From the IMG/VR virus record IMGVR_UViG_2541047905_000010: a stretch of DNA of 37,360 bases, one strand, 5' to 3'. The notes under the pieces are model-generated. The model was given only the letters and a program-made list of their open reading frames with translations, ran no database searches and was not told the origin of the DNA. This DNA comes from a virus (lineage: Duplodnaviria; Heunggongvirae; Uroviricota; Caudoviricetes). Of the stretch, positions 2,912-16,018 are shown piece by piece (the first letter of the stretch is position 1; each line of letters opens with the position of its first letter). The translations under genes and the position numbers were made by a program.

Positions 2912-3667
2912 TTAAACTGCTAGTTGCAATTGCATTTCAAAGCGGTCGCGTTGTTCACAATACGCAAGAGAACCAGGGCTATTGTGTGCCTCAATCCGTT
3001 CTACCATTAATGCTGCGCGTGTCTCTTTACTTGCAGGTGCATAAGCCCCAGACCAGGCTTTATCAATACCGATGTTTCGAGCGACGTTCGTACTATCTGC
3101 GCTGGCTAAGGGTAATTTTGTGAATATCAGCGGATTTAACATGCGCAATCCATGTAGTTTCGTAACCAGCTGACCATGCCCATCAACAATGTGACGAATC
3201 AGGTCTTTCATTCTGGCTACCGCAAGAGTTGGGCGCTTTACGTCATAGTCGCCACAACTACCGATAGCCACTCGCGGAAACTCATTGCACAAATGAATAA
3301 ATCGCTCGTCACTTTCATTCATGTGCCACACTGGAACGCCAGCTAGTTTTCCGTGAGGCCACTCATTCAGAAGCGCATCATTTTCCTCCTCTCCGCCATC
3401 AATAACATCCGGGATAATGGCAAAATCGAATCTTGGGTGATTCTTCCAGCGAGCAACAAACTCGTAGTAATCGCTCCAGTCGATTTTGTTTTTGCCAGCT
3501 GCTTTCCAGGCGGTGAATGCACCGTTGTCCAGCGCGAACGACTGACAGTATTCAGCCGCGAGATTGATCTGGCCTGAATGCGCAAAACTGATAAACGCAT
3601 GTCGCCCTTTCCATGCTCTCATTGCGCACGTATCAGGAGTAATAGGCCCACCGTGGTAGTGAATCAT
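2912..3667 (-). CDS. Hypothetical protein (251 aa from the second Met; the track ORF extends to 3709)
   Basis: AAGGAGAG ribosome-binding site 6 nt upstream of the ATG at 3667, placed 1 nt after the upstream gene's stop codon; no family recognised by eye. Confidence 0.55.
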   Translation of the reverse strand: MIHYHGGPITPDTCAMRAWKGRHAFISFAHSGQINLAAEYCQSFALDNGAFTAWKAAGKNKIDWSDYYEFVARWKNHPRFDFAIIPDVIDGGEEENDALLNEWPHGKLAGVPVWHMNESDERFIHLCNEFPRVAIGSCGDYDVKRPTLAVARMKDLIRHIVDGHGQLVTKLHGLRMLNPLIFTKLPLASADSTNVARNIGIDKAWSGAYAPASKETRAALMVERIEAHNSPGSLAYCEQRDRFEMQLQLAV

Positions 3668-4876: not shown

Positions 4877-5037
4877 ACAGCTCCCCGTTTATTATTTATC
4901 TCCTCAGCCAGCCGCTGTGCTTTCAGGGGATTTCTGATAACAGAAAGGCCGGGAAATACCCAGCCTCGCTTTGTAATGGAGTAGACGAAAGTGATCGCGC
5001 CCACCCGGATATTATCGTGAGGATGCGTCATCGCCAT
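4849..5037 (-). CDS. Hypothetical small protein (lambda orf60a-like position)
   Basis: 62-aa ORF overlapping the exo start region; positional assignment. Confidence 0.35.
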
Positions 5038-5708
5038 TGCTCCCCAAATACAAAACCAATTTCAGCCAGTGCCTCGTCCATTTTTTCGATGAACTCCGGC
5101 ACCATCTCGTCAAAACTCGCCATGTACTTTTCATCCCGCTCAACCACGACATAATGCAGGCCTTCACGCTTCATACGCGGGTCATAGTTGGCAAAGTACC
5201 AGGCATCTTTTCGCGTCACCCACATGCTGTACTGCACCTGGGCCATGTAAGCCGACTTTATGGCCTCGAAACCACCGAGCCGGAACTTCATGAAATCCCG
5301 GGAGGTAAACGGGCATTTCAGCTCAAGGCCATTGCCGTCACTGCATAAACCATCGGGAGAGCAGGCGGTACGCATACTTTCGTCGCGATAGATGATCGGG
5401 GATTCAGTAACATTCACGCCGGAAGTGAATTCAAACAGAGTTCTGGCGTCGTTCTCGTACTGTTTTCCCCATGCCAGCGCCTTAGCATTAACTTCCGGAG
5501 CCACACCGGTGCAAACCTCAGCCAGCAGGGTGTGGAAGTAGGACATTTTCATGTCAGGCCACTTTTTTCCGGAGCGGGGTTTTGCTATCACATTGTGAAC
5601 TTCTGAAGCGGTGATGACGCCGAGCCGTAATTTGTGCCACGCATCATCCCCCTGTTCGACAGCTCTCACGTCGATTCCGGTACGCTGCAGGATAATGTCC
5701 GGTGTCAT
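5028..5708 (-). CDS. exo: Lambda exonuclease (Red-alpha, 226 aa)
   Basis: 226-aa ORF matching lambda Exo from memory ([40 protein letters not shown]...). Confidence 0.97.
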
Positions 5709-6490
5709 GCAGCCACCTTCTGCTCAGTGGCTTTCTGTTTCAGGAATCCAAGAGCTTTCACTGCTTCGGCCTGTGTCAGTTCTGACGATGCGCGAATGTC
5801 GCGGCGAAATATCTGGGAACAGAGCGGCAATAAGTCGTCATCCCATGTTTTATCCAGGGCAATCAGCAGAGTGTTAATCTCCTGCATGGTTTCATCGTTA
5901 ACCGGAGTGATGTCGCGTTCCGGCTGACGTTCTGCAGTGTATGCGGTATTTTCGACAATGCGCTCGGCTTCATCCTTGTCATAGATACCCGCAAATCCGA
6001 AGGCCAGACGGGCACACTGAATCATGGCTTTATGCCGTAACATCCGTTTGGGATGCGACTGCCACGGCCCCGTAATTTCTCTGCCTTCGCGGGTTTTGAA
6101 TGGTTCGCGGCGGCATTCATCCATCCACTCGGTAACGCAGATCGGATGATTACGGTCCTTGCGGTAAATCCGGCATGTACAGGATTCATTGTCCTGCTCA
6201 AAGTCCATGCCATCAAACTGCTGGTTTTCATTGATGATGCGGGACCAGCCATCAACGCCCACCACCGGAACGATGCCATTCTGCTTATCAGGAAAGGTGT
6301 AAATTTCTTTCGTCCACGGATTAAGGCCGTACTGGTTGGCAACGATCAGTAATGCGATGAACTGCGCATCGCTGGCATCACCTTTAAATGCCGTCTGGCG
6401 AAGAGTGGTGATCAGTTCCTGTGGGTCGACAGAATCCATGCCGACACGTTCAGCCAGCTTCCCAGCCAGCGTTGCGAGTGCTGTACTCAT
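5705..6490 (-). CDS. bet: Beta single-strand annealing protein (Red-beta, 261 aa)
   Basis: 261-aa [62 protein letters not shown]...; overlaps the exo start. Confidence 0.97.
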
Positions 6491-6495
6491 CCGTT

Positions 6496-6792
6496 TTATA
6501 CCTCTGAATCAATATCAACCTGGTGGTGAGCAATGGTTTCAACCATGTACCGGATGTGTTCTGCCATGCGCTCCTGAAACTCAACATCGTCATCAAACGC
6601 ACGGGTAATGGCTTTTTTGCTGGCCCCGTGGCGTTGCAAATGATCGATGCATAGCGATTCAAACAGGTGCTGGGGCAGGCCTTTTTCCATGTCGTCTGCC
6701 AGTTCTGCCTCTTTCTCTTCACGGGCGATCTGCTGGTAGTGACGCGCCCAGCTCTGAGCCTCAAGACGATCCTGAATGTAATAAGCGTTCAT
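6496..6792 (-). CDS. gam: Gam, RecBCD inhibitor, short form only (98 aa)
   Basis: [21 protein letters not shown]...[10 protein letters not shown]; the reading frame upstream of this Met has an in-frame stop and no start codon. Confidence 0.9.
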
Positions 6793-6867
6793 GGCTGAAC
6801 TCCTGAAAATGGCTGTGAAAATATCGCCCGCGAAATGCCAGGCTGATTAGGAAAACAGGAAAGGGGA

Positions 6868-7158
6868 TTAGCGATTCAGGCCGTTACCGCGTCCGTCGAG
6901 AAAAACTTCCACGAGCAAATCACGGGTATAAGTGCGCTCGATGCCGCGATGCAGATAAAGCCGTCCGCGTAAATTAGCTGATGCAGTCCAGGTACCATCT
7001 TTGTGTTTGACCAGCATTCCTGGCATGACCGCACCTCGATTAACGGTCTGCGTTCCGTAATGTTGATGAACCATAAAAACTCCTGCCCGTAAGCTGGGCT
7101 GCTGAACATATAGAGACTTCTGCGCGTATTCAGGCGGTGGATGGCCGCCGGTTGTCAT
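6868..7158 (-). CDS. Hypothetical protein in the first-gene position of the leftward early operon (96 aa from ATG; track ORF extends to 7278 from TTG with an Arg-rich N-terminus)
   Basis: Only substantial minus-strand ORF between the candidate pL/OL and gam; not recognisably N, kil or cIII. Confidence 0.35.
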
Positions 7159-7295
7159 AACTAAGTCGCCTCGTTGAAGCGACTGAGGTATGAAGTGTTG
7201 AGTTGATTTCAGCTGGTCACACCGACGTTCACGCGTCCGCTTCACCCCTCGCACTCCCCGAAGCCTGCTGAAATTCAAACTGCGGATCTAAGCGG

Positions 7296-7347
7296 TCATC
7301 GCAACGGTGAAACAGGTGGTTACCGTATCGTTGTGTCGTTGCGATGA
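7296..7347 (-). promoter_or_regulatory. 11-bp perfect inverted repeat (tcatcgcaacg / cgttgcgatga) with 30-bp spacer, in the leader of the leftward early transcript
   Basis: Read directly from the sequence; no U-tract follows, so it is not an intrinsic terminator. Confidence 0.3.
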
Positions 7348-7363
7348 ATTTATTTAAAACTAT

Positions 7364-7430
7364 AGTTGTTTTATCGTCAACAACAAAAGTTGTTTTGTCG
7401 GTTGTTTTAAATATAACTGGTTGTATTTAG
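7364..7430 (-). promoter_or_regulatory. Candidate OL/pL operator-promoter region
   Basis: gttgtt-N8-aacaac at 7365-7384 has the same half-sites as the palindrome between the repressor and cro-like genes; further GTTGT repeats follow at 7389-7425. Confidence 0.35.
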
Positions 7431-7516
7431 GATGGATTTATTTTGTGACTTGCATCGCATAGCGATAACTGAAGTGAGGTGTGGTGGTTTTTTGGACGGT
7501 ATGAGTTATGAGGGGG

Positions 7517-7546
7517 AGGAAAAGAAAACCCGGCGCGGTTGCCGGG
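7517..7546 (-). terminator. Intrinsic terminator downstream of the lipoprotein gene
   Basis: Minus-strand RNA: CCCGGC-AACCGC-GCCGGG followed by UUUUCUUUUC, 9 nt after the stop codon. Confidence 0.65.
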
Positions 7547-7554
7547 TATGATTA

Positions 7555-7935
7555 TCAGTCAGCCCAACCTGATTTCGAGTTTATTTGGGTTTCTGACATT
7601 GTGTATTTCTTAATCGTGTCATCGTTAAAAAGAATAGTAAGTTCTTTTTTCGTACCGTTCGTTCCATTATGGAATAATCCATAGAATGGAATAAAAGTGG
7701 TGCCATTAACTTTTACTTTTGCAAAGGCGTACTTCCAGATCTCGTTTCCACTGTCAGTATATGAAACAGCATCAGGAGAACCAAAGTAAGATTTAACCTC
7801 ATTCTTGGTTGTTTTACCTTCCTGAAGTTTAGACTGGACACTAATTTCAGTTTCATTTTTGAGTTGCTGGTTGCCTGAAGAAGCACACCCAGCCAATACA
7901 GATGCCATCATGGCAGCGATTAGGATTTTTCTCAT
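7555..7935 (-). CDS. Lipoprotein (signal peptide with LAGC lipobox), BamE/OmlA-like fold suspected; lysogenic-conversion moron
   Basis: MRKILIAAMMASVLAGCASS...; AT-rich codon usage; sits directly downstream of the repressor gene on the same strand and has its own terminator. Confidence 0.8.
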   Translation of the reverse strand: MRKILIAAMMASVLAGCASSGNQQLKNETEISVQSKLQEGKTTKNEVKSYFGSPDAVSYTDSGNEIWKYAFAKVKVNGTTFIPFYGLFHNGTNGTKKELTILFNDDTIKKYTMSETQINSKSGWAD

Positions 7936-8164
7936 TTTATGTTTCCATTCATTATAATCAGAAACATCTTAACATAATGATTCGAAATAAAAACCGCTAC
8001 GAGATAGGGGGACATTTTGCTGACAGTAGCAACAAATCTCAGCTAACAACGAGAATATTTACTGAAATATGCAAACAGATTTGGCGTTCTTATAGAGAAT
8101 TTAGTGCAATATCTAATCCGAGTGGTATAAACCTTAACCTTCGCTCCCTTAAGTCGTAGATAAA

Positions 8165-8854
8165 TTAACCATGCTTCCTGTACGTCTGCGGCATGCTTCC
8201 AATGACCTTACCGAATATGAACACCCGGTTCATCTCGTCTTTCTCGATCGGGTCCCACGGCGAGTAGCTCTTGTTATCAGAGATAACCAGCAGCTTATCC
8301 TTCATCATTTGAAGACGTTTTACATGGGCAGTGTCGTCGTACAGAAACGCATAGATGCCATCACCGTCGAAAGATTTAACAGTGATATCAACGAACAGCA
8401 GGTCACCTGGTTCGATCGTCCCTGACATGCTGTCACCTCGCACGTTAATGATGCGGATATTTTCCGCCTTCCTGCCATCGAACATGTGACGAGCATCGTC
8501 AAACGAGTACTCAACCGAGCGTAGAACTTCTACAAACTCACGGTTGATTACACCTGGCCCGGCACTGACTTCTATATCAAGAACGTCAATTTTGAAGTAT
8601 TTGGAATGGCTGACAGTTGATTGTATTGGTTGCACTGTACTGTCTGACATATTTCCAACGCCAGAAGATAACCATTCTGCGCGCACACCCAAAGCGTTCG
8701 CGATCTCCACGATTTTAGTTGTTTGGTTAGCTTTCCCTGTTTCGATTTTCTGAATAGCAGCCTGGCTAACCCCGACCAAATCCCCAAGCGCCTTTTGTGT
8801 AAGGCCTCGCGCTAATCTGGCTTCTTTAAGTCTTTCTGAGAGTGTTGTTTTCAT
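8165..8854 (-). CDS. Prophage repressor, HTH (XRE) + S24 LexA-like peptidase domain (CI-type, not lambda cI)
   Basis: 229 aa; N-terminal LTQKALGDLVGVSQAAIQKIETGK helix-turn-helix; C-terminal Ser/Lys autocleavage module (GDSMSGT...KRL); divergent from the cro-like gene. Confidence 0.9.
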   Translation of the reverse strand: MKTTLSERLKEARLARGLTQKALGDLVGVSQAAIQKIETGKANQTTKIVEIANALGVRAEWLSSGVGNMSDSTVQPIQSTVSHSKYFKIDVLDIEVSAGPGVINREFVEVLRSVEYSFDDARHMFDGRKAENIRIINVRGDSMSGTIEPGDLLFVDITVKSFDGDGIYAFLYDDTAHVKRLQMMKDKLLVISDNKSYSPWDPIEKDEMNRVFIFGKVIGSMPQTYRKHG

Positions 8855-8958
8855 AGATCAAATGTACAACCAAGGTTTTATTTCATCAAACGAAAATGGT
8901 TGTTGACTAAAAACAACCATAGTTTTAATCTTGATTCGGATTAACCACGGAGGTTGTT
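8855..8958. promoter_or_regulatory. OR / pRM-pR divergent promoter-operator region
   Basis: Palindrome atggttgtt-gactaaa-aacaaccat at 8896-8920 overlapping a TTGACT -35-like hexamer; further ACAACC/GGTTGT half-sites at 8866-8876 and 8952-8957. Confidence 0.6.
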
Positions 8959-9189
8959 ATGAACCCAGCAATCAAAACAGCGATCAATATCGTTGGTTCA
9001 CAAAAGAAACTAGGCGATGCCTGCGAAGTTTCACAGCAGGCCGTCTATAAGTGGCTTCACAACAAAGCAAAGGTATCCCCTGAACATGTCGGCAGCATTG
9101 TTACGGCTACTGGTGGAGTTGTGAAGGCATACCAGATTCGCCCGGATCTTCCGAAGTTGTTTCCACACACCGAAAAGAACGCAGCTTAA
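8959..9189 (+). CDS. Cro-like regulator (YdaS/Cro family HTH)
   Basis: 76-aa ORF divergent from the repressor; GGAGG ribosome-binding site; resembles Rac/CP-933P YdaS-type Cro. Confidence 0.8.
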   Translation: MNPAIKTAINIVGSQKKLGDACEVSQQAVYKWLHNKAKVSPEHVGSIVTATGGVVKAYQIRPDLPKLFPHTEKNAA

Positions 9190-9201
9190 ATTTCCATTTC
9201 A

Positions 9202-9213
9202 CGCTCTTTAACA
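9202..9213 (+). promoter_or_regulatory. boxA-like antitermination element (CGCTCTTTAACA)
   Basis: Matches the boxA consensus GCTCTTTAACAA at the position expected for nutR (just downstream of cro); no obvious boxB hairpin follows. Confidence 0.4.
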
Positions 9214-9258
9214 ATAAGCAATCAACTTAACAGTCAATTCAAACTAAAGGAGTCAATT

Positions 9259-9798
9259 ATGCAACCACTTACATACCAACAGACTAGCGGATTTATTCCG
9301 ACTGCGGTGATAAATCGTTCTCAAACAAAACAAGCTCCAGGCCACGAAAAAATCCGTGATGCCGTCCGCGCCTGGTCGGCTGTAGATAATCAGGATGTCG
9401 TTGCCGCACTCATTGTGAATGAGTATCGGGAGCAGGGCGACGGCACCATCGATTTCCCTGATGATGTCAGCCGTGCACGCCAGAAGCTGTTCCGCTTCCT
9501 CGATAACAAATTCGATTCTGAAAAATACCGAAATAACGTGCGTGAACTGACCCCGGCAATTCTGGCGGTACTACCGCTGGAATATCGCGGTTACCTGGTT
9601 GAGCAGGATAGCTTCATGACTCGGTTGGCTGAAATGGAAAAGGAACTCAGTGAGGCAAAACAGGCTGTCATTCTCAACGCACCACGCCACCAGAAACTGA
9701 AGGAAATGAGTGAAGGTATTGTGTCGATGTTTCGTGTGGACCCGGATCTGGCTGGTCCATTAATGGCGATGGTGACCACCATGCTGGGGGCAATATGA
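9259..9798 (+). CDS. YdaT-family protein (proposed CII functional analogue)
   Basis: 179 aa; occupies the cII slot; motif LTPAILAVLPLEYRGYL resembles the YdaT family as recalled. Confidence 0.65.
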   Translation: MQPLTYQQTSGFIPTAVINRSQTKQAPGHEKIRDAVRAWSAVDNQDVVAALIVNEYREQGDGTIDFPDDVSRARQKLFRFLDNKFDSEKYRNNVRELTPAILAVLPLEYRGYLVEQDSFMTRLAEMEKELSEAKQAVILNAPRHQKLKEMSEGIVSMFRVDPDLAGPLMAMVTTMLGAI

Positions 9799-9884
9799 CA
9801 GGTTCAGAAATGGCGAAAGTCGGTCTGCGGGAACAGAACCGACTTTCAGGTGCAAATCGTAACACACTCATTGCGGGAGGAATT

Positions 9885-10814
9885 ATGGCAAACACTGCTG
9901 AGATATTCAATTTTCCAGTGCCGGATGCGGCACAAAAGGAGCCGCGCGTGGCAGATCTCGATGATGGTTATACGCGCATTGCAAATGAGTTGCTGGAAGC
10001 TGTGATGCTGGCCGGATTAACACAGCACCAGCTTCTGGTCTTCCTGGCTGTCATGCGCAAAACATATGGCTTTAATAAAAAACTGGATTGGGTGAGCAAC
10101 GAGCAACTTTCCGAGTTGACCGGGATATTGCCGCACAAGTGTTCTGCTGCAAAAAGCGTTCTGGTAAAGCGTGGGATTCTTATTCAGAGCGGGCGGAATA
10201 TCGGCATTAATAATGTGGTCAGTGAATGGTCAACATTACCCGAATCAGGTAAGAAAAATAAAGTTTACCTGAAAGAGGTAAATTTACCTGAATCAGGTAA
10301 GAAAAGTTTACCCAAATCAGGTAAAGGCGTTTACCCGAATCAGGTAAACACAAAAGACAAACTAACAAAAGACAATATAAAACCTTTTTCGTCCGAGAAT
10401 TCTGGCGAATCCTCTGACCAACCAGAAAACGATCTTCCTGTGGAGAAACCAGATGCTGCAATTCAGAGCGGCAGCAGGTGGGGGACAGCAGAAGACCTGA
10501 CCGCCGCAGAGTGGATGTTTGACATGGTGAAGACCATCGCGCCATCAGCCAGAAAACCGAATTTTGCAGGGTGGGCTAACGATATCCGCCTGATGCGTGA
10601 ACGTGACGGACGTAACCACCGCGACATGTGCGTGCTGTTCCGCTGGGCATGCCAGGACAACTTCTGGTCCGGTAACGTGCTAAGTCCGGCCAAACTCCGC
10701 GACAAGTGGACCCAACTCGAAATCAACCGTAACAAGCAACAGGCTGGCGTGACAGCCGGAAAATCAAAACTCGACCTGACAAACACTGACTGGATTTATG
10801 GGGTGGATTTATGA
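9885..10814 (+). CDS. O: Replication initiator O (lambda O family); track ORF starts at 9795
   Basis: N-terminal region VADLDDGYTRIANELLEA...RKTYGFNK matches lambda O; ori iterons embedded in the coding sequence; GGAGG ribosome-binding site before ATG 9885. Confidence 0.9.
   Translation: MANTAEIFNFPVPDAAQKEPRVADLDDGYTRIANELLEAVMLAGLTQHQLLVFLAVMRKTYGFNKKLDWVSNEQLSELTGILPHKCSAAKSVLVKRGILIQSGRNIGINNVVSEWSTLPESGKKNKVYLKEVNLPESGKKSLPKSGKGVYPNQVNTKDKLTKDNIKPFSSENSGESSDQPENDLPVEKPDAAIQSGSRWGTAEDLTAAEWMFDMVKTIAPSARKPNFAGWANDIRLMRERDGRNHRDMCVLFRWACQDNFWSGNVLSPAKLRDKWTQLEINRNKQQAGVTAGKSKLDLTNTDWIYGVDL
10236..10385. repeat. Origin of replication: four to five ~19-bp iterons (tttacccgaatcaggtaag-type) plus A-rich tract
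   Basis: Direct repeats at about 10236-10253, 10283-10301, 10307-10325, 10329-10347 with a degenerate copy at 10264-10282, then cacaaaagacaaactaacaaaagacaatataaaa. Confidence 0.85.
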
Positions 10815-11512
10815 AAAACATCGCCGCACAGATGGTTAACTTTGACCGTGAGCAGATGCGCCGGATCGCCAACAACATGCCGGAACAGTACGACGAAAAG
10901 CCGCAGGTACAGCAGGTAGCGCGGATCATCAACGGTGTGTTCAGCCAGTTACTGGCAACTTTCCCGGCGAGCCTGGCTAACCGGGACCAGAACGAACTGA
11001 ACGAAATCCGCCGCCAGTGGGTTCTGGCTTTCCGGGAAAACGGGATCACCACAATGGAACAGGTTAACGCAGGAATGCGCGTAGCCCGTCGGCAGAATCG
11101 ACCATTCCTGCCATCACCCGGGCAGTTTGTCGCCTGGTGCCGGGAAGAAGCATCCGTTACCGCCGGACTGCCAAACGCCAGCGAGCTGGTTGATATGGTT
11201 TACGAGTATTGCCGGAAGCGTGGCCTGTATCCGGACGCAGAGTCTTATCCATGGAAATCAAACGCGCACTACTGGTTGGTTACCAACCTGTACCAGAACA
11301 TGCGGGCCAATGCGCTGACTGACGCGGAATTACGGCGTAAAGCTGCCGATGAGCTGACCTGTATGACCGCGCGAATTAACCGTGGTGAGGCGATACCTGA
11401 ACCAGTAAAACAACTTCCTGTCATGGGCGGTAGGCCTCTAAATCGTGCACAGGCTCTGGCGAAGATCGCAGAAATCAAAGCGAAGTTCGGACTGAAAGGA
11501 GCAACTGTATGA
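10811..11512 (+). CDS. P: Replication protein P (DnaB helicase loader, 233 aa)
   Basis: 233-aa ORF matching lambda P from memory (MKNIAAQMVNFDREQMRRIANNMPEQYDEKPQVQQVA...). Confidence 0.96.
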   Translation: MKNIAAQMVNFDREQMRRIANNMPEQYDEKPQVQQVARIINGVFSQLLATFPASLANRDQNELNEIRRQWVLAFRENGITTMEQVNAGMRVARRQNRPFLPSPGQFVAWCREEASVTAGLPNASELVDMVYEYCRKRGLYPDAESYPWKSNAHYWLVTNLYQNMRANALTDAELRRKAADELTCMTARINRGEAIPEPVKQLPVMGGRPLNRAQALAKIAEIKAKFGLKGATV

Positions 11513-11682
11513 CGGGCAAAGAGGCAATTATTCATTATCTGGAGACGCACAAGAGCTTCTGTGCGCCGGACGTTGCTGCGACAACAGGTGTGACATTAAC
11601 CAGCATAAATCAGGCTGCGGCAAAAATGGCGCGGGCAGGAATCCTGGTCATTGATGGTAAGGTCTGGCGAACGTTTGTTTAA
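11509..11682 (+). CDS. ren: Ren-like protein, C-terminally truncated (57 aa)
   Basis: MTGKEAIIHYLETHKSFCAPDVAATTGVTLTSINQAAAKMARAGILVIDGKVWRTFV matches the N-terminal ~55 residues of lambda Ren as recalled; start overlaps the P stop (ATGA). Confidence 0.7.
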   Translation: MTGKEAIIHYLETHKSFCAPDVAATTGVTLTSINQAAAKMARAGILVIDGKVWRTFV

Positions 11683-11828
11683 CGGTTAGCTACTCAGGAT
11701 GATAGGGCGGGGCAAGTGAGTATGAAGCGGATTTTCAGGAATGCCATCAGAGTTTGGAAATAAAGTGGGTTTTCTAGTGGCAAGAGACTTGATAATATTT
11801 AGTTCTTTAAATCCAAGGAGATAGGGTT

Positions 11829-12323
11829 ATGAGAAAATTTATTATAGCCTTTGTCATAAGTGCCTCGTTTACTGCAAATGCTGGTGTAGAGAAGTTAGGG
11901 TCGTGGATAACAAAGTCTGAGATAAATAAAATGACTGACCAGACTGACTTTGTGGCTCTTAATTTATCACCAGATTCATATAACAAAGCAGGTACTGATC
12001 GTGCAACTTCACTGGTGTTGCGTTGTAGTGATAACAAAACAGATGCCTATTTATCATTCAATGATTATATGGGTTCGGACAACCCAAGAATTACAGTGCG
12101 GTTAGATGGCGGAAAGCCGGTCAAGAGTGCTTGGGGAGGTGGGGAAGGCGGTGATTCTGCATTTGCTCCACAACCAATACAATTTATAAAGACCTTGGCT
12201 AAGCATAAAAAAGCTATTTTTGGGTTTGAACCTTATGGATCAACTATGCAAGTAGTTGAGTTTGACTTGTCTGAGATTGATAAGGTTGTGGAAAAAATTT
12301 CACAGTCTTGCAATTGGAAATGA
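11829..12323 (+). CDS. Secreted/periplasmic hypothetical protein (Sec signal peptide, two Cys); AT-rich moron
   Basis: 164 aa; MRKFIIAFVISASFTANA signal peptide; AAGGAGA ribosome-binding site; followed by an intrinsic terminator; lower GC than the flanks. Confidence 0.7.
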   Translation: MRKFIIAFVISASFTANAGVEKLGSWITKSEINKMTDQTDFVALNLSPDSYNKAGTDRATSLVLRCSDNKTDAYLSFNDYMGSDNPRITVRLDGGKPVKSAWGGGEGGDSAFAPQPIQFIKTLAKHKKAIFGFEPYGSTMQVVEFDLSEIDKVVEKISQSCNWK

Positions 12324-12340
12324 CAAAAAAATTTCATATG

Positions 12341-12368
12341 AACCCAGTTGGCGCTGGGTTTTTTATTT
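12341..12368 (+). terminator. Intrinsic terminator after the secreted-protein gene
   Basis: aacccag-ttggcg-ctgggtt hairpin followed by ttttatttc. Confidence 0.65.
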
Positions 12369-13096
12369 CAGTAGCCAATAATGCATTCAAAATCTCTTAC
12401 TTGAGAAACGGCCTATTTGAGATTTCAGTCGTGGCAGGATGATCAGTTGATTCGAGTATTGACGCATTTGCGTTCGGAGCGATTACAGTAGATTGTAAAT
12501 AATAATGAGAAACACATAGCCACATAGCCACCCCGTGGTATTGAAACCATATAATGTTGGATTTGAAAACAGATCTTTTCCCATGTATTAATAACTACAT
12601 CCCCGCGAGTGATTCAAAAAGGAGGGCCCAATTTTGTCCGAGTTTTTGTATTCCCCCGCATGCCGCTGCGGAGCACTACATCTGAGTGTCTGACTAGGGG
12701 ATAAAATTAGACTGGATAGTGAGAAGAAAGTGGCGCGCTAGGCTGTGCCGAGTGCTACCAGTACACCTTGGGGGTGTGCAGCTTTCGCCGAGACTGTAGT
12801 GGGTATCGGTTAATGCACGAAAAACCGAGAGGTCAGACAACCAATTTGCCGTAGGATTGTTTCCGGTGCGATACCGGTCTACTAACTGAAAGCAATGCGA
12901 AAAAGCATAAACTCGGTCCTTCAGTCGCCCTACACACTATTTACTAAGAAGGGCTGAAGCATGGATACAATTATTACATGGATGGGAGATCGTCTGTTGG
13001 GGGGGACACAAAAATCCGATCTGCAGCAGATGGCGATCACTGGATTAACTTCCGCGATTTGTTCAACAATTTTGTACACTGAAAAATTAAAACATG

Positions 13097-13120: not shown

Positions 13121-13624
13121 TTATTGATAGTGTTTTATGTTCAGATAATGCCCGATGACTTTGTCATGCAGCTCCACCGATTTTGAGAACGACAGCGACT
13201 TCCGTCCCAGCCGTGCCAGGTGCTGCCTCAGATTCAGGTTATGCCGCTCAATTCGCTGCGTATATCGCTTGCTGATTACGTGCAGCTTTCCCTTCAGGCG
13301 GGATTCATACAGCGGCCAGCCATCCGTCATCCATATCACCACGTCAAAGGGTGACAGCAGGCTCATAAGACGCCCCAGCGTCGCCATAGTGCGTTCACCG
13401 AATACGTGCGCAACAACCGTCTTCCGGAGCCTGTCATACGCGTAAAACAGCCAGCGCTGGCGCGATTTAGCCCCGACATAGCCCCACTGTTCGTCCATTT
13501 CCGCGCAGACGATGACGTCACTGCCCGGCTGTATGCGCGAGGTTACCGACTGCGGCCTGAGTTTTTTAAGTGACGTAAAATCGTGTTGAGGCCAACGCCC
13601 ATAATGCGGGCTGTTGCCCGGCAT
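13121..13624 (-). CDS. insB: IS1 transposase InsB (expressed as InsAB' by -1 frameshift)
   Basis: 167-aa ORF matching IS1 InsB from memory ([58 protein letters not shown]...). Confidence 0.93.
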
Positions 13625-13882: not shown

Positions 13883-14144
13883 TTAACCCAAACGAAGAAG
13901 AAAAACTTTATAGGCTTTGGTATGAAGGAAACGCTTGAAAGAATAAAGCACAATTAAAACCTTTGATTTGCGATAATCAACTTGCCATAATTAAGTAATC
14001 GGAGCCTGAACAACTCCGGTGACTTCTGCGCTAAACGGGGACGTTTATGCGCACATACAATCCAAACTATCTTCTCCTTTCACAGATGCAGAAATGCACC
14101 TGCAATTCTTTGCATCTAGCGTTTGACCTCTGTGGAGGTGAAGC

Positions 14145-15549: not shown

Positions 15550-15634
15550 AGTCAGAGATAACAATCAACTAATACTGTTTTGTTGATTTTTGCTTGTAAT
15601 TGGCGTTCTGGTCTGATTTTTGTGGAGTAAGTTG

Positions 15635-16018
15635 ATGCGTGATATTCAGATGGTTCTTGAGCGTTGGGGAGCGTGGGCGGCTAATAATCATGAAGATGTG
15701 ACCTGGTCGTCCATTGCCGCCGGTTTTAAGGGATTAATTACTTCAAAAGTAAAATCTCGCCCGCAATGTTGTGACGATGACGCTATGATCATTTGCGGGT
15801 GCATGGCCCGTCTGAAAAAGAACAACAGCGATTTGCACGATTTATTAGTAGATTATTATGTAGTCGGTATGACATTCATGTCACTGGCAGGTAAGCATTG
15901 CTGCTCTGATGGTTATATCGGGAAAAGGTTACAGAAGGCTGAGGGCATAATTGAAGGGATGTTAATGGCATTAGATATCCAGTTAGAGATGGATATCGTT
16001 GTTAATAACTCTAATTAA
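15635..16018 (+). CDS. Q: Late-gene antiterminator Q (DLP12 QuuD-like, 127 aa from ATG)
   Basis: Position between rusA and the lysis genes; cysteine-rich ([16 protein letters not shown]); track ORF begins at an upstream TTG. Confidence 0.8.

What the first reader, a model, noticed from the sequence alone, without database searches (positions are those of the whole stretch)
9190..9258. Consensus boxA without a boxB hairpin downstream of the cro-like gene
CGCTCTTTAACAA at 9202-9214 matches the boxA consensus shared by rrn operons and nut sites, at the place where nutR would sit. No GC-rich boxB stem-loop follows within 40 nt, and no boxA is visible on the leftward arm. With the missing N homologue this suggests an atypical antitermination arrangement, either N-independent and boxA-only, or using a divergent factor.
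Basis: partly seen in the sequence, partly recalled or inferred. Interest (0 to 1): 0.45.

Follow-up and report, generated by a model that had tools for sequence, protein, structure and literature searches.

The report
Orphan boxA from a decayed nutR
A perfect host-factor binding signal (boxA) sits after the cro gene of this E. coli prophage, but it is the surviving half of an old phage antitermination site whose hairpin was deleted and whose partner protein N is absent, so it is probably a relic and not a new control system.

Summary
CGCTCTTTAACAA at 9202-9214 is the window's only exact boxA. It lies in the 69-nt cro-cII spacer, no hairpin follows it, and the phage has no N, no nutL and no HK022-type put RNA.

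The origin is clear from relatives. In 22 of 50 loci with a homologous cro (YdaS family), a boxA follows the cro stop codon, always with a downstream hairpin. Several of these loci also encode arginine-rich N-like proteins. The nearest relatives have boxA, a 19-20 nt spacer, then GGCUGA-GNRA-UCAGCC. A minority of sibling E. coli prophages keep a weaker hairpin (GACUG-AUUAA-CAGUC). The window lacks exactly those 12 nt, a deletion between two TTAACAG repeats.

The hairpin-less form is in 1,468 of 5,426 complete E. coli genomes, against 47 for the hairpin form. It is also in isolated phages (PhiR26_1, PhiR34_1, IdasGreatGrand).

Best reading: an orphan boxA left from an N-dependent nutR. It matches the functional consensus GYTCTTTAANA and sits in an unstructured, C-rich, G-poor stretch 45 nt before the cII start. 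It therefore probably still binds NusB-S10, and a host-only effect on Rho is possible but untested. Interest is modest.

The parts
9202..9214 (+). boxA (CGCTCTTTAACAA). It is an exact match to the rrn/nut consensus and to the functional consensus GYTCTTTAANA (9203-9213).
   Evidence: It is positionally homologous to the nutR boxA of cro-family relatives.
9190..9258 (+). cro-cII spacer. It is unstructured, C-rich and G-poor (C 14, G 3 in 9190-9245), which is rut-like in composition. The cII Shine-Dalgarno sequence AAGGAG is at 9247-9252.
   Evidence: Folds. Composition: the strongest C>G stretch of the pR transcript, at the 97.9th percentile of the window.
9227..9233 (+). TTAACAG, the single remaining copy of a direct repeat and the junction of the 12-nt deletion (ACTGATTAACAG). 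That deletion removed the boxB-like hairpin GACUG-AUUAA-CAGUC present in sibling prophages.
   Evidence: The outgroups L132, L133-136 and L265-267 keep a hairpin at this place.
8959..9189 (+). cro-like repressor gene (YdaS family, 76 aa). The boxA travels with this gene family.
   Evidence: Pfam PF15943, E = 6.6e-17; phrog_35; homologues.
9259..9798 (+). CII-like gene (YdaT family, 179 aa). Its start codon lies 45 nt after the end of boxA.
   Evidence: Pfam PF06254, E = 4.3e-30; phrog_163.
8860..8935 (.). OR operators and pR (-35 TTGACT at 8903-8908). This is the start of the transcript that carries boxA.
   Evidence: Sequence; operator inverted repeat 8896-8920; operator copies shared with the left arm (I4 and I5). 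Promoter hexamers were read by eye.
8165..8854 (-). cI repressor (HTH plus S24 peptidase domains).
7352..7430 (-). OL operators and pL (-35 TTGACG at 7380-7375).
   Evidence: Homologous to the phi80-type pL.
7075..7346 (-). pL leader upstream of kil. It contains no boxA, no N gene and no put RNA. It has a 10-bp stem at its 5' end (7346-7297) and a conserved two-hairpin block (7193-7133).
6868..7074 (-). kil (KilR-type, 68 aa). It is the first recognisable gene of the left operon and sits where N would be in lambda.
   Evidence: phrog_294 matches residues 49-124 of the long ORF. Phage 4A7 annotates the 68-aa form.

Best explanation
The boxA is the surviving 5' half of a lambda-type nutR site inherited together with this cro gene family.

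Shown:
- Relatives of the cro gene carry boxA plus a boxB-type hairpin at the same place.
- Several of those relatives also have arginine-rich N-like genes or a nutL.
- Sibling E. coli prophages keep a degenerate hairpin.
- The window lost that hairpin through a 12-nt deletion between TTAACAG repeats.
- The phage has no N, no nutL and no put RNA, so N-type processive antitermination cannot operate here.

Inferred:
- The site became orphaned when the cI-cro-nutR immunity module was recombined into an N-less lambdoid backbone. The boxB half then decayed.
- The remaining sequence is a perfect, single-stranded consensus boxA. The nascent pR transcript should therefore still bind host NusB-S10.
- The most likely residual effect is a modest, host-only, rrn-like damping of Rho action at the C-rich cro-cII spacer.
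- The phage does not depend on this.

My estimates: origin as a nutR remnant about 0.9; any measurable Nus-dependent effect today about 0.5; a selected, necessary function about 0.25.
For: Origin in relatives:
- An exact boxA lies 12 nt after the cro stop codon.
- 22 of 50 loci with homologous cro genes, from other Enterobacterales, have boxA at 11/13 or better within 60 nt of the cro stop. The background rate is 32 of 9,790 windows.
- All 22 have a hairpin within 45 nt (-3.4 to -17.2 kcal/mol), against -1.7 in the window.
- Left arms of these relatives encode arginine-rich N-like ORFs. L110 has MNAQERRRESRAAKQADWKAAN and L100 has GNAKTRRHERRR.
- Closest relatives (cro 82-87% identical) have boxA-N19/20-GGCUGA-(GGAA/GAAA/GUAA)-UCAGCC.
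- L133, L135 and L260 also have a phi80-like nutL.

The deletion:
- Sibling E. coli loci L007, L008, L020, L022 and L033 have the extra 12 nt that form GACUG-AUUAA-CAGUC (-5.7 kcal/mol).
- One stem pair shows a compensatory G-C to A-U change relative to L132.

Absence of partners: no N, no nutL and no put.

The hairpin is dispensable:
- The hairpin-less form is in 1,468 of 5,426 complete E. coli genomes, against 47 for the hairpin form.
- Isolated phages PhiR26_1, PhiR34_1 and IdasGreatGrand carry an identical spacer.

Other N-less phages that have putL also carry a boxA-plus-hairpin site on the right arm (L132, L203, L213, L153). However, 32 of 35 L132-type putL phages with at least 2.5 kb of right arm have neither putR nor boxA. 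This fits mosaic shuffling better than a designed partnership.
Against: - boxA is perfectly intact while its flanks have diverged. It is 13/13 identical to L133, against roughly 55-60% identity in the spacer and unalignable sequence upstream. The boxB half has decayed. This asymmetry could mean that boxA alone is still under selection.
- By published criteria the site counts as a candidate Nus-regulated gene start: GYTCTTTAANA within 50 nt of a start codon (PMC5725501).
- boxA alone is known to work at rrn, CRISPR and suhB loci.
- The only sibling with a mutated boxA (L033) also has a frameshifted kil region, as if boxA decays only in defective prophages. This is a single case.
- When N was lost in this lineage cannot be dated, so conservation cannot be assigned to the N-less period.
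Confidence: 0.55

Rival explanations
1. The orphan boxA is a working host-only antiterminator of the rrn or CRISPR-leader type. NusB-S10 binds the nascent boxA. Together with NusA, NusG and SuhB it makes RNA polymerase from pR resistant to Rho through cII-O-P and beyond. No phage factor is needed.
For: - The site matches the functional consensus exactly.
- It is unstructured.
- It lies in the strongest C>G, rut-like stretch of the pR transcript, as lambda's boxA lies in the rutA part of tR1 (own knowledge).
- boxA is fully conserved while flanks and boxB decay.
- There is precedent for boxA-only anti-Rho activity in reporters and CRISPR arrays (PMC7665894; PMC5725501 discussion).
- The form is very common and occurs in viable phages.
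Against: - The genes downstream are tightly packed and translated, with overlapping stop and start codons at 9795/9798 and 10811/10814. Rho should therefore have little access.
- The next obvious barrier is an intrinsic terminator at 12340-12361. rrn-type complexes do not suppress intrinsic terminators well (own knowledge).
- Related N-less phages such as 4A7, and most putL-only phages, have no boxA on the right arm and still exist.
- There is no boxA on the left arm.
Confidence: 0.25
2. The boxA acts as a suhB-like attenuator of the CII-like gene. The Nus complex bound 45 nt upstream of the start codon loops the RNA to the polymerase. This represses cII (YdaT) translation and so promotes Rho termination, lowering CII and replication gene expression.
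For: - The site meets the published search criterion: GYTCTTTAANA within 50 nt of a start codon.
- Repression at suhB persisted when the boxA-to-SD distance was increased by inserts of 2-100 bp.
- A non-Nus gene in C. koseri is also regulated this way (PMC5725501).
- The boxA and the rut-like sequence overlap here as they do at suhB.
Against: - The element demonstrably descends from a nutR, whose role in relatives is antitermination.
- The cII Shine-Dalgarno sequence AAGGAG is strong.
- No data exist on direction or size of any effect.
- The spacing to the start codon changed by 12 nt between the sibling forms, which does not suggest a tuned spacing.
Confidence: 0.1
3. A divergent, unrecognised phage factor (an N analogue) or cis-acting RNA uses this boxA together with some other signal.
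For: - The pL leader is long (about 270 nt) and structured, with a 10-bp 5' stem and a conserved two-hairpin block shared with 4A7 and L132.
- A short arginine-rich stretch (KRTRERRCDQLK) can be read upstream of and in frame with kil.
Against: - There are no significant hits to 13 N/Nun proteins.
- The arginine-rich reading frame is not conserved in L132, is interrupted in L007 and is frameshifted in L033.
- No motif other than the operators is shared between the pL and pR transcripts.
- The put covariance model finds nothing: best 11.4 bits, E = 0.74, inside the O gene.
- Rfam finds nothing.
Confidence: 0.05
4. The boxA match is a chance occurrence with no evolutionary or biochemical meaning.
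For: With up to 2 mismatches, matches are no more frequent than in shuffles: 2 found against 0.92 expected.
Against: - About 0.001 exact 13-mers are expected per window (arithmetic), and 0.06 for the 11-nt functional consensus.
- The same motif sits at the same place in 22 of 50 homologous loci, against 0.3% of background windows.
Confidence: 0.01

Closest known systems
Lambda-type nutR (boxA, spacer, boxB) of lambdoid phages: lambda, P22, phi80 and the nutR sites of this cro family's relatives
   Same: It has the same position, just after cro on the pR transcript. It has the same boxA consensus. It is directly homologous by alignment to boxA-N19/20-hairpin sites in relatives. Like lambda rutA/boxA, it lies in a C-rich, G-poor context.
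   Different: There is no boxB, because a 12-nt deletion removed it. There is no N gene and no nutL. It cannot nucleate an N complex.
rrn operon leader boxA (rrn antitermination complex: NusB, NusE, NusA, NusG, SuhB, S4)
   Same: 13 of 14 bases are identical to the rrn leader sequence TGCTCTTTAACAAT, recalled from memory. The site is single-stranded. No phage protein would be needed.
   Different: There is no upstream boxB or downstream boxC, and no untranslated structured RNA to protect. The downstream RNA is translated mRNA. Function here is untested.
boxA of suhB and of C. koseri CKO_00699 (PMC5725501), and boxA in Salmonella CRISPR leaders (PMC7665894)
   Same: Each is a stand-alone boxA matching GYTCTTTAANA. 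Those at suhB and CKO_00699 lie within 50 nt of a start codon and overlap a pyrimidine-rich Rho loading region. These cases show that boxA alone can either promote or prevent Rho termination.
   Different: Those sites are conserved as stand-alone elements. This one is demonstrably the remains of a two-part nut site.
HK022 put RNAs (N-independent, RNA-only antitermination)
   Same: The situation is the same: a lambdoid phage without N. A relative with 86% identical cro (L132) does carry a putL on its left arm together with boxA plus a hairpin on the right.
   Different: The window has no put on either arm. The covariance model built from 29 put sequences finds nothing there, while it scores L132 at 95.9 bits.

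Membership tests
Lambda-type nut site | boxA matching CGCTCTT(T)A on the early transcript | tested here: met
   Exact CGCTCTTTAACAA at 9202-9214.
Lambda-type nut site | boxB stem-loop a short distance downstream of boxA | tested here: not met
   The 45 nt after boxA fold at -1.7 kcal/mol, and 9185-9275 has z = -0.01. The hairpin is present in siblings and relatives and was deleted here.
Lambda-type nut site | Phage N protein with an arginine-rich motif encoded downstream of pL | tested here: not met
   No N in the annotation of the 99% identical PhiR26_1. No Pfam or PHROG hit. tblastn with 13 N/Nun proteins gave only noise.
Lambda-type nut site | A second site (nutL) on the pL transcript | tested here: not met
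   No boxA with up to 2 mismatches anywhere in 6000-13000 other than 9202. No shared inverted motif apart from the operators.
Lambda-type nut site | Position between cro and cII, and homology to accepted nutR sites | tested here: met
   The site lies in the cro-cII spacer. It aligns with boxA-hairpin sites of cro-family relatives.
Stand-alone (host-only) boxA element: rrn, CRISPR leader, suhB type | Match to the functional consensus GYTCTTTAANA | tested here: met
   GCTCTTTAACA at 9203-9213, with 0.06 expected by chance. The consensus is from PMC5725501.
Stand-alone (host-only) boxA element: rrn, CRISPR leader, suhB type | boxA is accessible as single-stranded RNA | tested here: met
   No significant structure across 9110-9275.
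Stand-alone (host-only) boxA element: rrn, CRISPR leader, suhB type | NusB-NusE binding and SuhB recruitment, with a Nus-dependent change in Rho termination | not testable with these tools
   This needs ChIP or reporter assays. Only the rut-like composition was seen.
Stand-alone (host-only) boxA element: rrn, CRISPR leader, suhB type | Conservation as a stand-alone element in the absence of a phage partner | tested here: inconclusive
   boxA is intact in 77 of the 78 sibling IMG/VR loci that could be scored (of 80 fetched) and in the N-less L132, L203 and L213. However, the siblings are nearly identical and the time of N loss is unknown.
HK022 put RNA | A two-stem RNA of about 70 nt with the conserved put sequence downstream of pL and/or pR | tested here: not met
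   Covariance model R1: the best window hit is 11.4 bits (E = 0.74) inside the O gene. The positive control, L132 putL, scores 95.9 bits.

The most novel reading that the evidence does not exclude
The orphan boxA may have been kept and reused as a phage element that needs only host Nus factors. It could act as an rrn- or CRISPR-like shield against Rho for the pR operon, or as a suhB-like brake on the CII-like gene. It does so in a prophage family present in about a quarter of complete E. coli genomes. Loss of the boxB hairpin may even have been favoured, because it removes the handle by which N or Nun proteins of competing lambdoid phages could act on this transcript.
Probability: 0.25. Interest if true: 0.55.

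Novelty: new variant of a known kind. Interest (0 to 1): 0.3.

Why it matters
If the relic reading is right, this is a clean, datable example of how a two-part regulatory RNA site decays after mosaic recombination strands it in a phage without its protein partner. The hairpin loop degenerates first, the hairpin is then deleted, and boxA remains.

It also shows that N-less, put-less lambdoid prophages are very common in E. coli: this one immunity type is in 27% of complete genomes. How such phages carry early transcription through to Q is an open, testable question.

If boxA is still active, it would be the first phage use of boxA without any phage factor. It would also add a common prophage target to the short list of non-ribosomal Nus-factor targets.

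Tried and rejected
- Rfam, at gathering and at permissive thresholds, found nothing relevant.
- HK022-type put RNA. The strong 5' hairpin in the pL leader and a weak resemblance to putL suggested it. A covariance model built from 29 put sequences found nothing in the window or in phage 4A7.
- A hidden N. An arginine-rich stretch upstream of and in frame with kil looked N-like. It is not conserved in L132, is interrupted in L007 and is frameshifted in L033. tblastn with lambda, P22 and phi80 N, nine N-like ORFs of relatives, and Nun gave only noise.
- An rrn-style hairpin upstream of boxA: none.
- A shared RNA motif between the pL and pR transcripts: only the operators are shared.
- A YdaT operator (TTGATT-N6-AATCAA, PMC9986795) in the spacer that might explain the conservation: none there.
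- A test for purifying selection on boxA within E. coli siblings. The 80 IMG/VR loci are too similar to give any power, with one variant in boxA and one just upstream.
- Whether the closest hairpin-bearing relatives (L133/L260 type) encode an N. They have a phi80-like nutL, but the gene at the N position is not recognisably N-like, and phi80 N gives no hit. This was left open.
- The Nus-target supplement of PMC5725501 lists other phage cII/c1 genes with a boxA. The part of the table read here showed no entry that I could match to this YdaT-type gene.

Full report
**Context.** The window is a lambdoid E. coli prophage. The gene order is as follows.

| Feature | Coordinates | Strand |
|---|---|---|
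| int | 135-1205 | - |
| exo, bet, gam | 5028-6792 | - |
| KilR-type kil | 6868-7074 | - |
| OL/pL | about 7352-7430 | - |
| lipoprotein moron with its own terminator | 7555-7935 | - |
| cI | 8165-8854 | - |
| OR/pR | about 8860-8935 | . |
| YdaS-family cro | 8959-9189 | + |
| YdaT-family CII-like gene | 9259-9798 | + |
| O | 9795-10814 | + |
| P | 10811-11512 | + |
| truncated ren | 11509-11682 | + |
| Q | 15620-16018 | + |

This rests. The region 7400-11600 is 99.2% identical to Escherichia phage PhiR26_1, whose annotation has no N gene.

- CGCTCTTTAACAA lies at 9202-9214 and is the only exact copy in the window.
- The functional boxA consensus GYTCTTTAANA, defined experimentally for E. coli in PMC5725501, matches once, at 9203-9213, with 0.06 expected.
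- The finding's span, 9190-9258, is exactly the cro-cII spacer.
- The RNA from 9185 to 9275 has no structure beyond chance (-4.1 kcal/mol, z = -0.01).
- The 45 nt after boxA fold at -1.7 kcal/mol.
- There is no hairpin upstream of boxA in the rrn arrangement either.
- A search allowing two mismatches finds no other boxA between 6000 and 13000 on either strand, so the left arm has none.

**No partner is present.**
- Pfam and PHROGs identify nothing N-like between gam and cI.
- tblastn with lambda N, P22 gp24, phi80 N, HK022 Nun and nine N-like ORFs taken from relatives gives only noise.
- A short arginine-rich stretch can be read upstream of kil in the same frame. It is not conserved in L132, is interrupted in L007 and is frameshifted in L033.
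- The pL leader starts with a strong hairpin, so I tested for an HK022-type put RNA. I collected put sequences from IMG/VR with a degenerate pattern, aligned 29 of them and built a covariance model.
- The model scores the putL of a relative (L132) at 95.9 bits. Its best hit in the window is 11.4 bits (E = 0.74) inside the O gene, and it finds nothing in phage 4A7.
- Rfam finds nothing.
- The two early transcripts share no motif other than the operators.

**Where the boxA comes from: distant relatives.** Cro homologues are spread across Enterobacterales. Using an alignment of 23 of them, I fetched 45 loci from species-representative genomes, plus further loci for closer homologues.
- In 22 of 50 loci, a boxA matching at least 11 of 13 positions lies within 60 nt after the cro stop codon, usually 6-16 nt after it. 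The background is 32 of 9,790 control windows.
- Every one of the 22 has a hairpin within the next 45 nt (-3.4 to -17.2 kcal/mol).
- Some of these are textbook sites. Serratia L110 has CGCTCTTAAACAT followed by GCTCTGAAGAAGAGC, and its left arm has an ORF beginning MNAQERRRESRAAKQADWKAAN, plainly lambda N-like.
- L100 has a P22-type GNAKTRRHERRR motif. L095, L098, L101 and L102 share MNRNQRRMAAYNA.
- In this cro family, therefore, a boxA right after cro is a nutR.

**Where the boxA comes from: close relatives.**
- Loci with 82-87% identical Cro read ACGCTCTTTAACAATCTGGAACCCAATTTAAC-GGCTGA-(GGAA, GAAA or GUAA)-TCAGCC. These are L133-136, L265/266 and L267. L265 is followed by a YdaT-type cII, as here.
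- L133, L135 and L260 also carry a second boxA-plus-hairpin on the left arm. It is almost identical to the annotated nutL of phi80.
- L132 (Cro 86% identical, YdaT cII) has CGCTCTTTAAAAA, 19 nt, then GGCTGAATTATCAGCC.

**The deletion in E. coli.**
- Among the 78 of 80 sibling IMG/VR loci that could be scored (Cro 99-100% identical), five read ...CAACTTAACAGACTGATTAACAGTCAATTC... This folds as GACUG-AUUAA-CAGUC, 19 nt after boxA (-5.7 kcal/mol). The five are L007, L008, L020, L022 and L033.
- The other 73, like the window, read ...CAACTTAACAGTCAATTC....
- The difference is the 12 nt ACTGATTAACAG, bounded by a direct repeat of TTAACAG.
- The outgroups all have a hairpin at that place, and the extra 12 nt are not a copy of neighbouring sequence. 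The short form is therefore a deletion.
- Relative to L132, the second stem pair changed from G-C to A-U on both sides. This suggests the stem was once maintained.
- The loop goes from GNRA-type in the more distant relatives, to AUUA or AUUAA, to nothing. That looks like stepwise decay.

**The hairpin is dispensable in this phage family.**
- All sibling loci, long and short, have the same N-less left arm.
- The short form occurs in 1,468 of 5,426 complete E. coli genomes (1,669 places). The long form occurs in 47.
- Three deposited phage isolates have a spacer identical to the window. PhiR26_1 and PhiR34_1 have host given as K-12 MG1655. IdasGreatGrand was isolated from swamp mud.

**Mosaic context.**
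- The CII-like gene is shared at about 97% identity with phages such as 4A7 and Perceval. Those phages have a different cro and only a 30-nt spacer with no boxA. The boxA therefore belongs to the cro module, not to cII.
- N-less phages with a putL on the left arm are common in IMG/VR.
- Of 35 L132-type putL loci with enough right arm, 32 have neither putR nor boxA. A few (L132, L203, L213, and L153 with an HK022-type putL) carry this boxA-plus-hairpin site.
- This is what free shuffling of immunity modules among backbones would give. It means orphan nutR sites have arisen more than once.

**What it does now.** N-type antitermination is excluded, because boxB, N and nutL all fail the membership test. 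What remains is a perfect boxA in an unstructured stretch.
- The composition of 9190-9245 is 14 C and 3 G, the strongest C-over-G stretch of the pR transcript. This resembles the overlap of boxA with the rutA part of tR1 in lambda (own knowledge).
- Published work shows that boxA alone recruits NusB-NusE and SuhB. It can prevent Rho termination (rrn reporters, CRISPR arrays; PMC7665894). It can also promote it by repressing translation of a gene that starts within about 50-100 nt (suhB, C. koseri CKO_00699; PMC5725501). Here the boxA ends 45 nt before the cII ATG.
- I therefore expect NusB-S10 to bind this RNA.

Whether that matters is unknown. These points argue against a needed role:
- The downstream genes are tightly packed and translated.
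- The next clear barrier is an intrinsic terminator at 12340-12361.
- Related N-less phages manage without a right-arm boxA.

These points argue for a role:
- boxA is 13/13 identical to L133, while the adjoining spacer is only about 55-60% identical and the upstream flank cannot be aligned.
- The one sibling with a mutated boxA also has a damaged kil region.
- Neither point can be assigned to the N-less period, so I treat them as hints.

**Verdict.** The thing is the orphaned boxA half of a decayed nutR in a very common N-less, put-less lambdoid prophage. It is a new variant of a known kind and of modest interest. The live question is whether a consensus boxA on its own still shapes early phage transcription through host Nus factors. 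That question is directly testable with the isolated phages.

Noticed in passing
window 7133-7193 (- strand); also L132 and L004 (phage 4A7): A block of about 75 nt in the pL leader (CTTCATACCTCAGTCGCTTCAACGAGGCGACTTAGTTATGACAACCGGCGGCCATCCACCGCC) is almost identical in the window, 4A7 and L132, although the rest of the L132 leader is unrelated. It folds into two hairpins (-25.8 kcal/mol) and contains an ATG opening MTTGGHPPP. Its function is unknown.
   Followed up: partly
window 7297-7346 (- strand): A perfect 10-bp stem (CAUCGCAACG...CGUUGCGAUG) lies at the very 5' end of the predicted pL transcript and is shared with phage 4A7. It is not a put RNA by the covariance model. The first 30 nt or so resemble the phi80-type pL leader.
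   Followed up: partly
L132 856-930 (- strand); IMG/VR loci such as L140, L144: A distinct putL variant (…GTCGGACGCCCGGCGGGCTCAGGGAGAGCGGCAATGGTGCG…) is the commonest put in the IMG/VR sample. It nearly always occurs alone: 32 of 35 loci with enough right arm have no putR and no boxA. Left-arm-only put phages may be a common arrangement.
   Followed up: partly
L003 (phi80) 3463-3480; L004 (4A7) 3463-3481; L005, L087-L089, L270/271: Many cro genes of this family that lack a boxA end in a GC-rich hairpin spanning the stop codon (for example GCCGCCTAACCGGCGGC), followed by a spacer of only about 30 nt to cII. Its meaning was not examined. It could be a terminator, an attenuator, a boxB-like element, or a consequence of the coding sequence.
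   Followed up: no
window 13121-13624 (- strand): A 167-aa transposase ORF (phrog_720) sits in the nin region between ren and ninB. From memory, its size suggests IS1 InsB. This copy of the prophage therefore carries an insertion sequence in the path from pR to Q.
   Followed up: no
window 11829-12361 (+ strand): A moron-like gene (164 aa, weak VasI match, phrog_1848) is followed by a strong intrinsic terminator (GAACCCAGTTGGCGCTGGGTTTTTTATTT, 12340-12361) on the rightward strand. In a phage with no N or put, this should stop much of the pR transcription before Q.
   Followed up: no
window 13963-13980 (+ strand): There is a perfect match to the CP-933P YdaT operator consensus TTGATT-N6-AATCAA (TTGATTTGCGATAATCAA). 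It overlaps a promoter-like site just upstream of ninB. It might be a CII/YdaT-controlled promoter, or chance.
   Followed up: no
window 11509-11682 (+ strand): The ren-like ORF is 57 aa here, against 100 aa in PhiR26_1. A mosaic junction therefore seems to lie inside ren.
   Followed up: no
L260 3876-4900 (- strand): The C. koseri-type relatives have a phi80-like pL, nutL and long leader. At the position of phi80 N they encode an unrelated protein of about 81-94 aa (…MVERVKEALGDAVHSMDECDF…RYRKRKKNGD…). It may be an unrecognised N analogue.
   Followed up: partly
window 7555-7935 (- strand): A lipoprotein gene (126 aa, weak BamE-like match, phrog_3135) with its own terminator (7547-7528) lies between cI and pL, where lambda has rexAB. 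Siblings carry other cargo at this spot.
   Followed up: no
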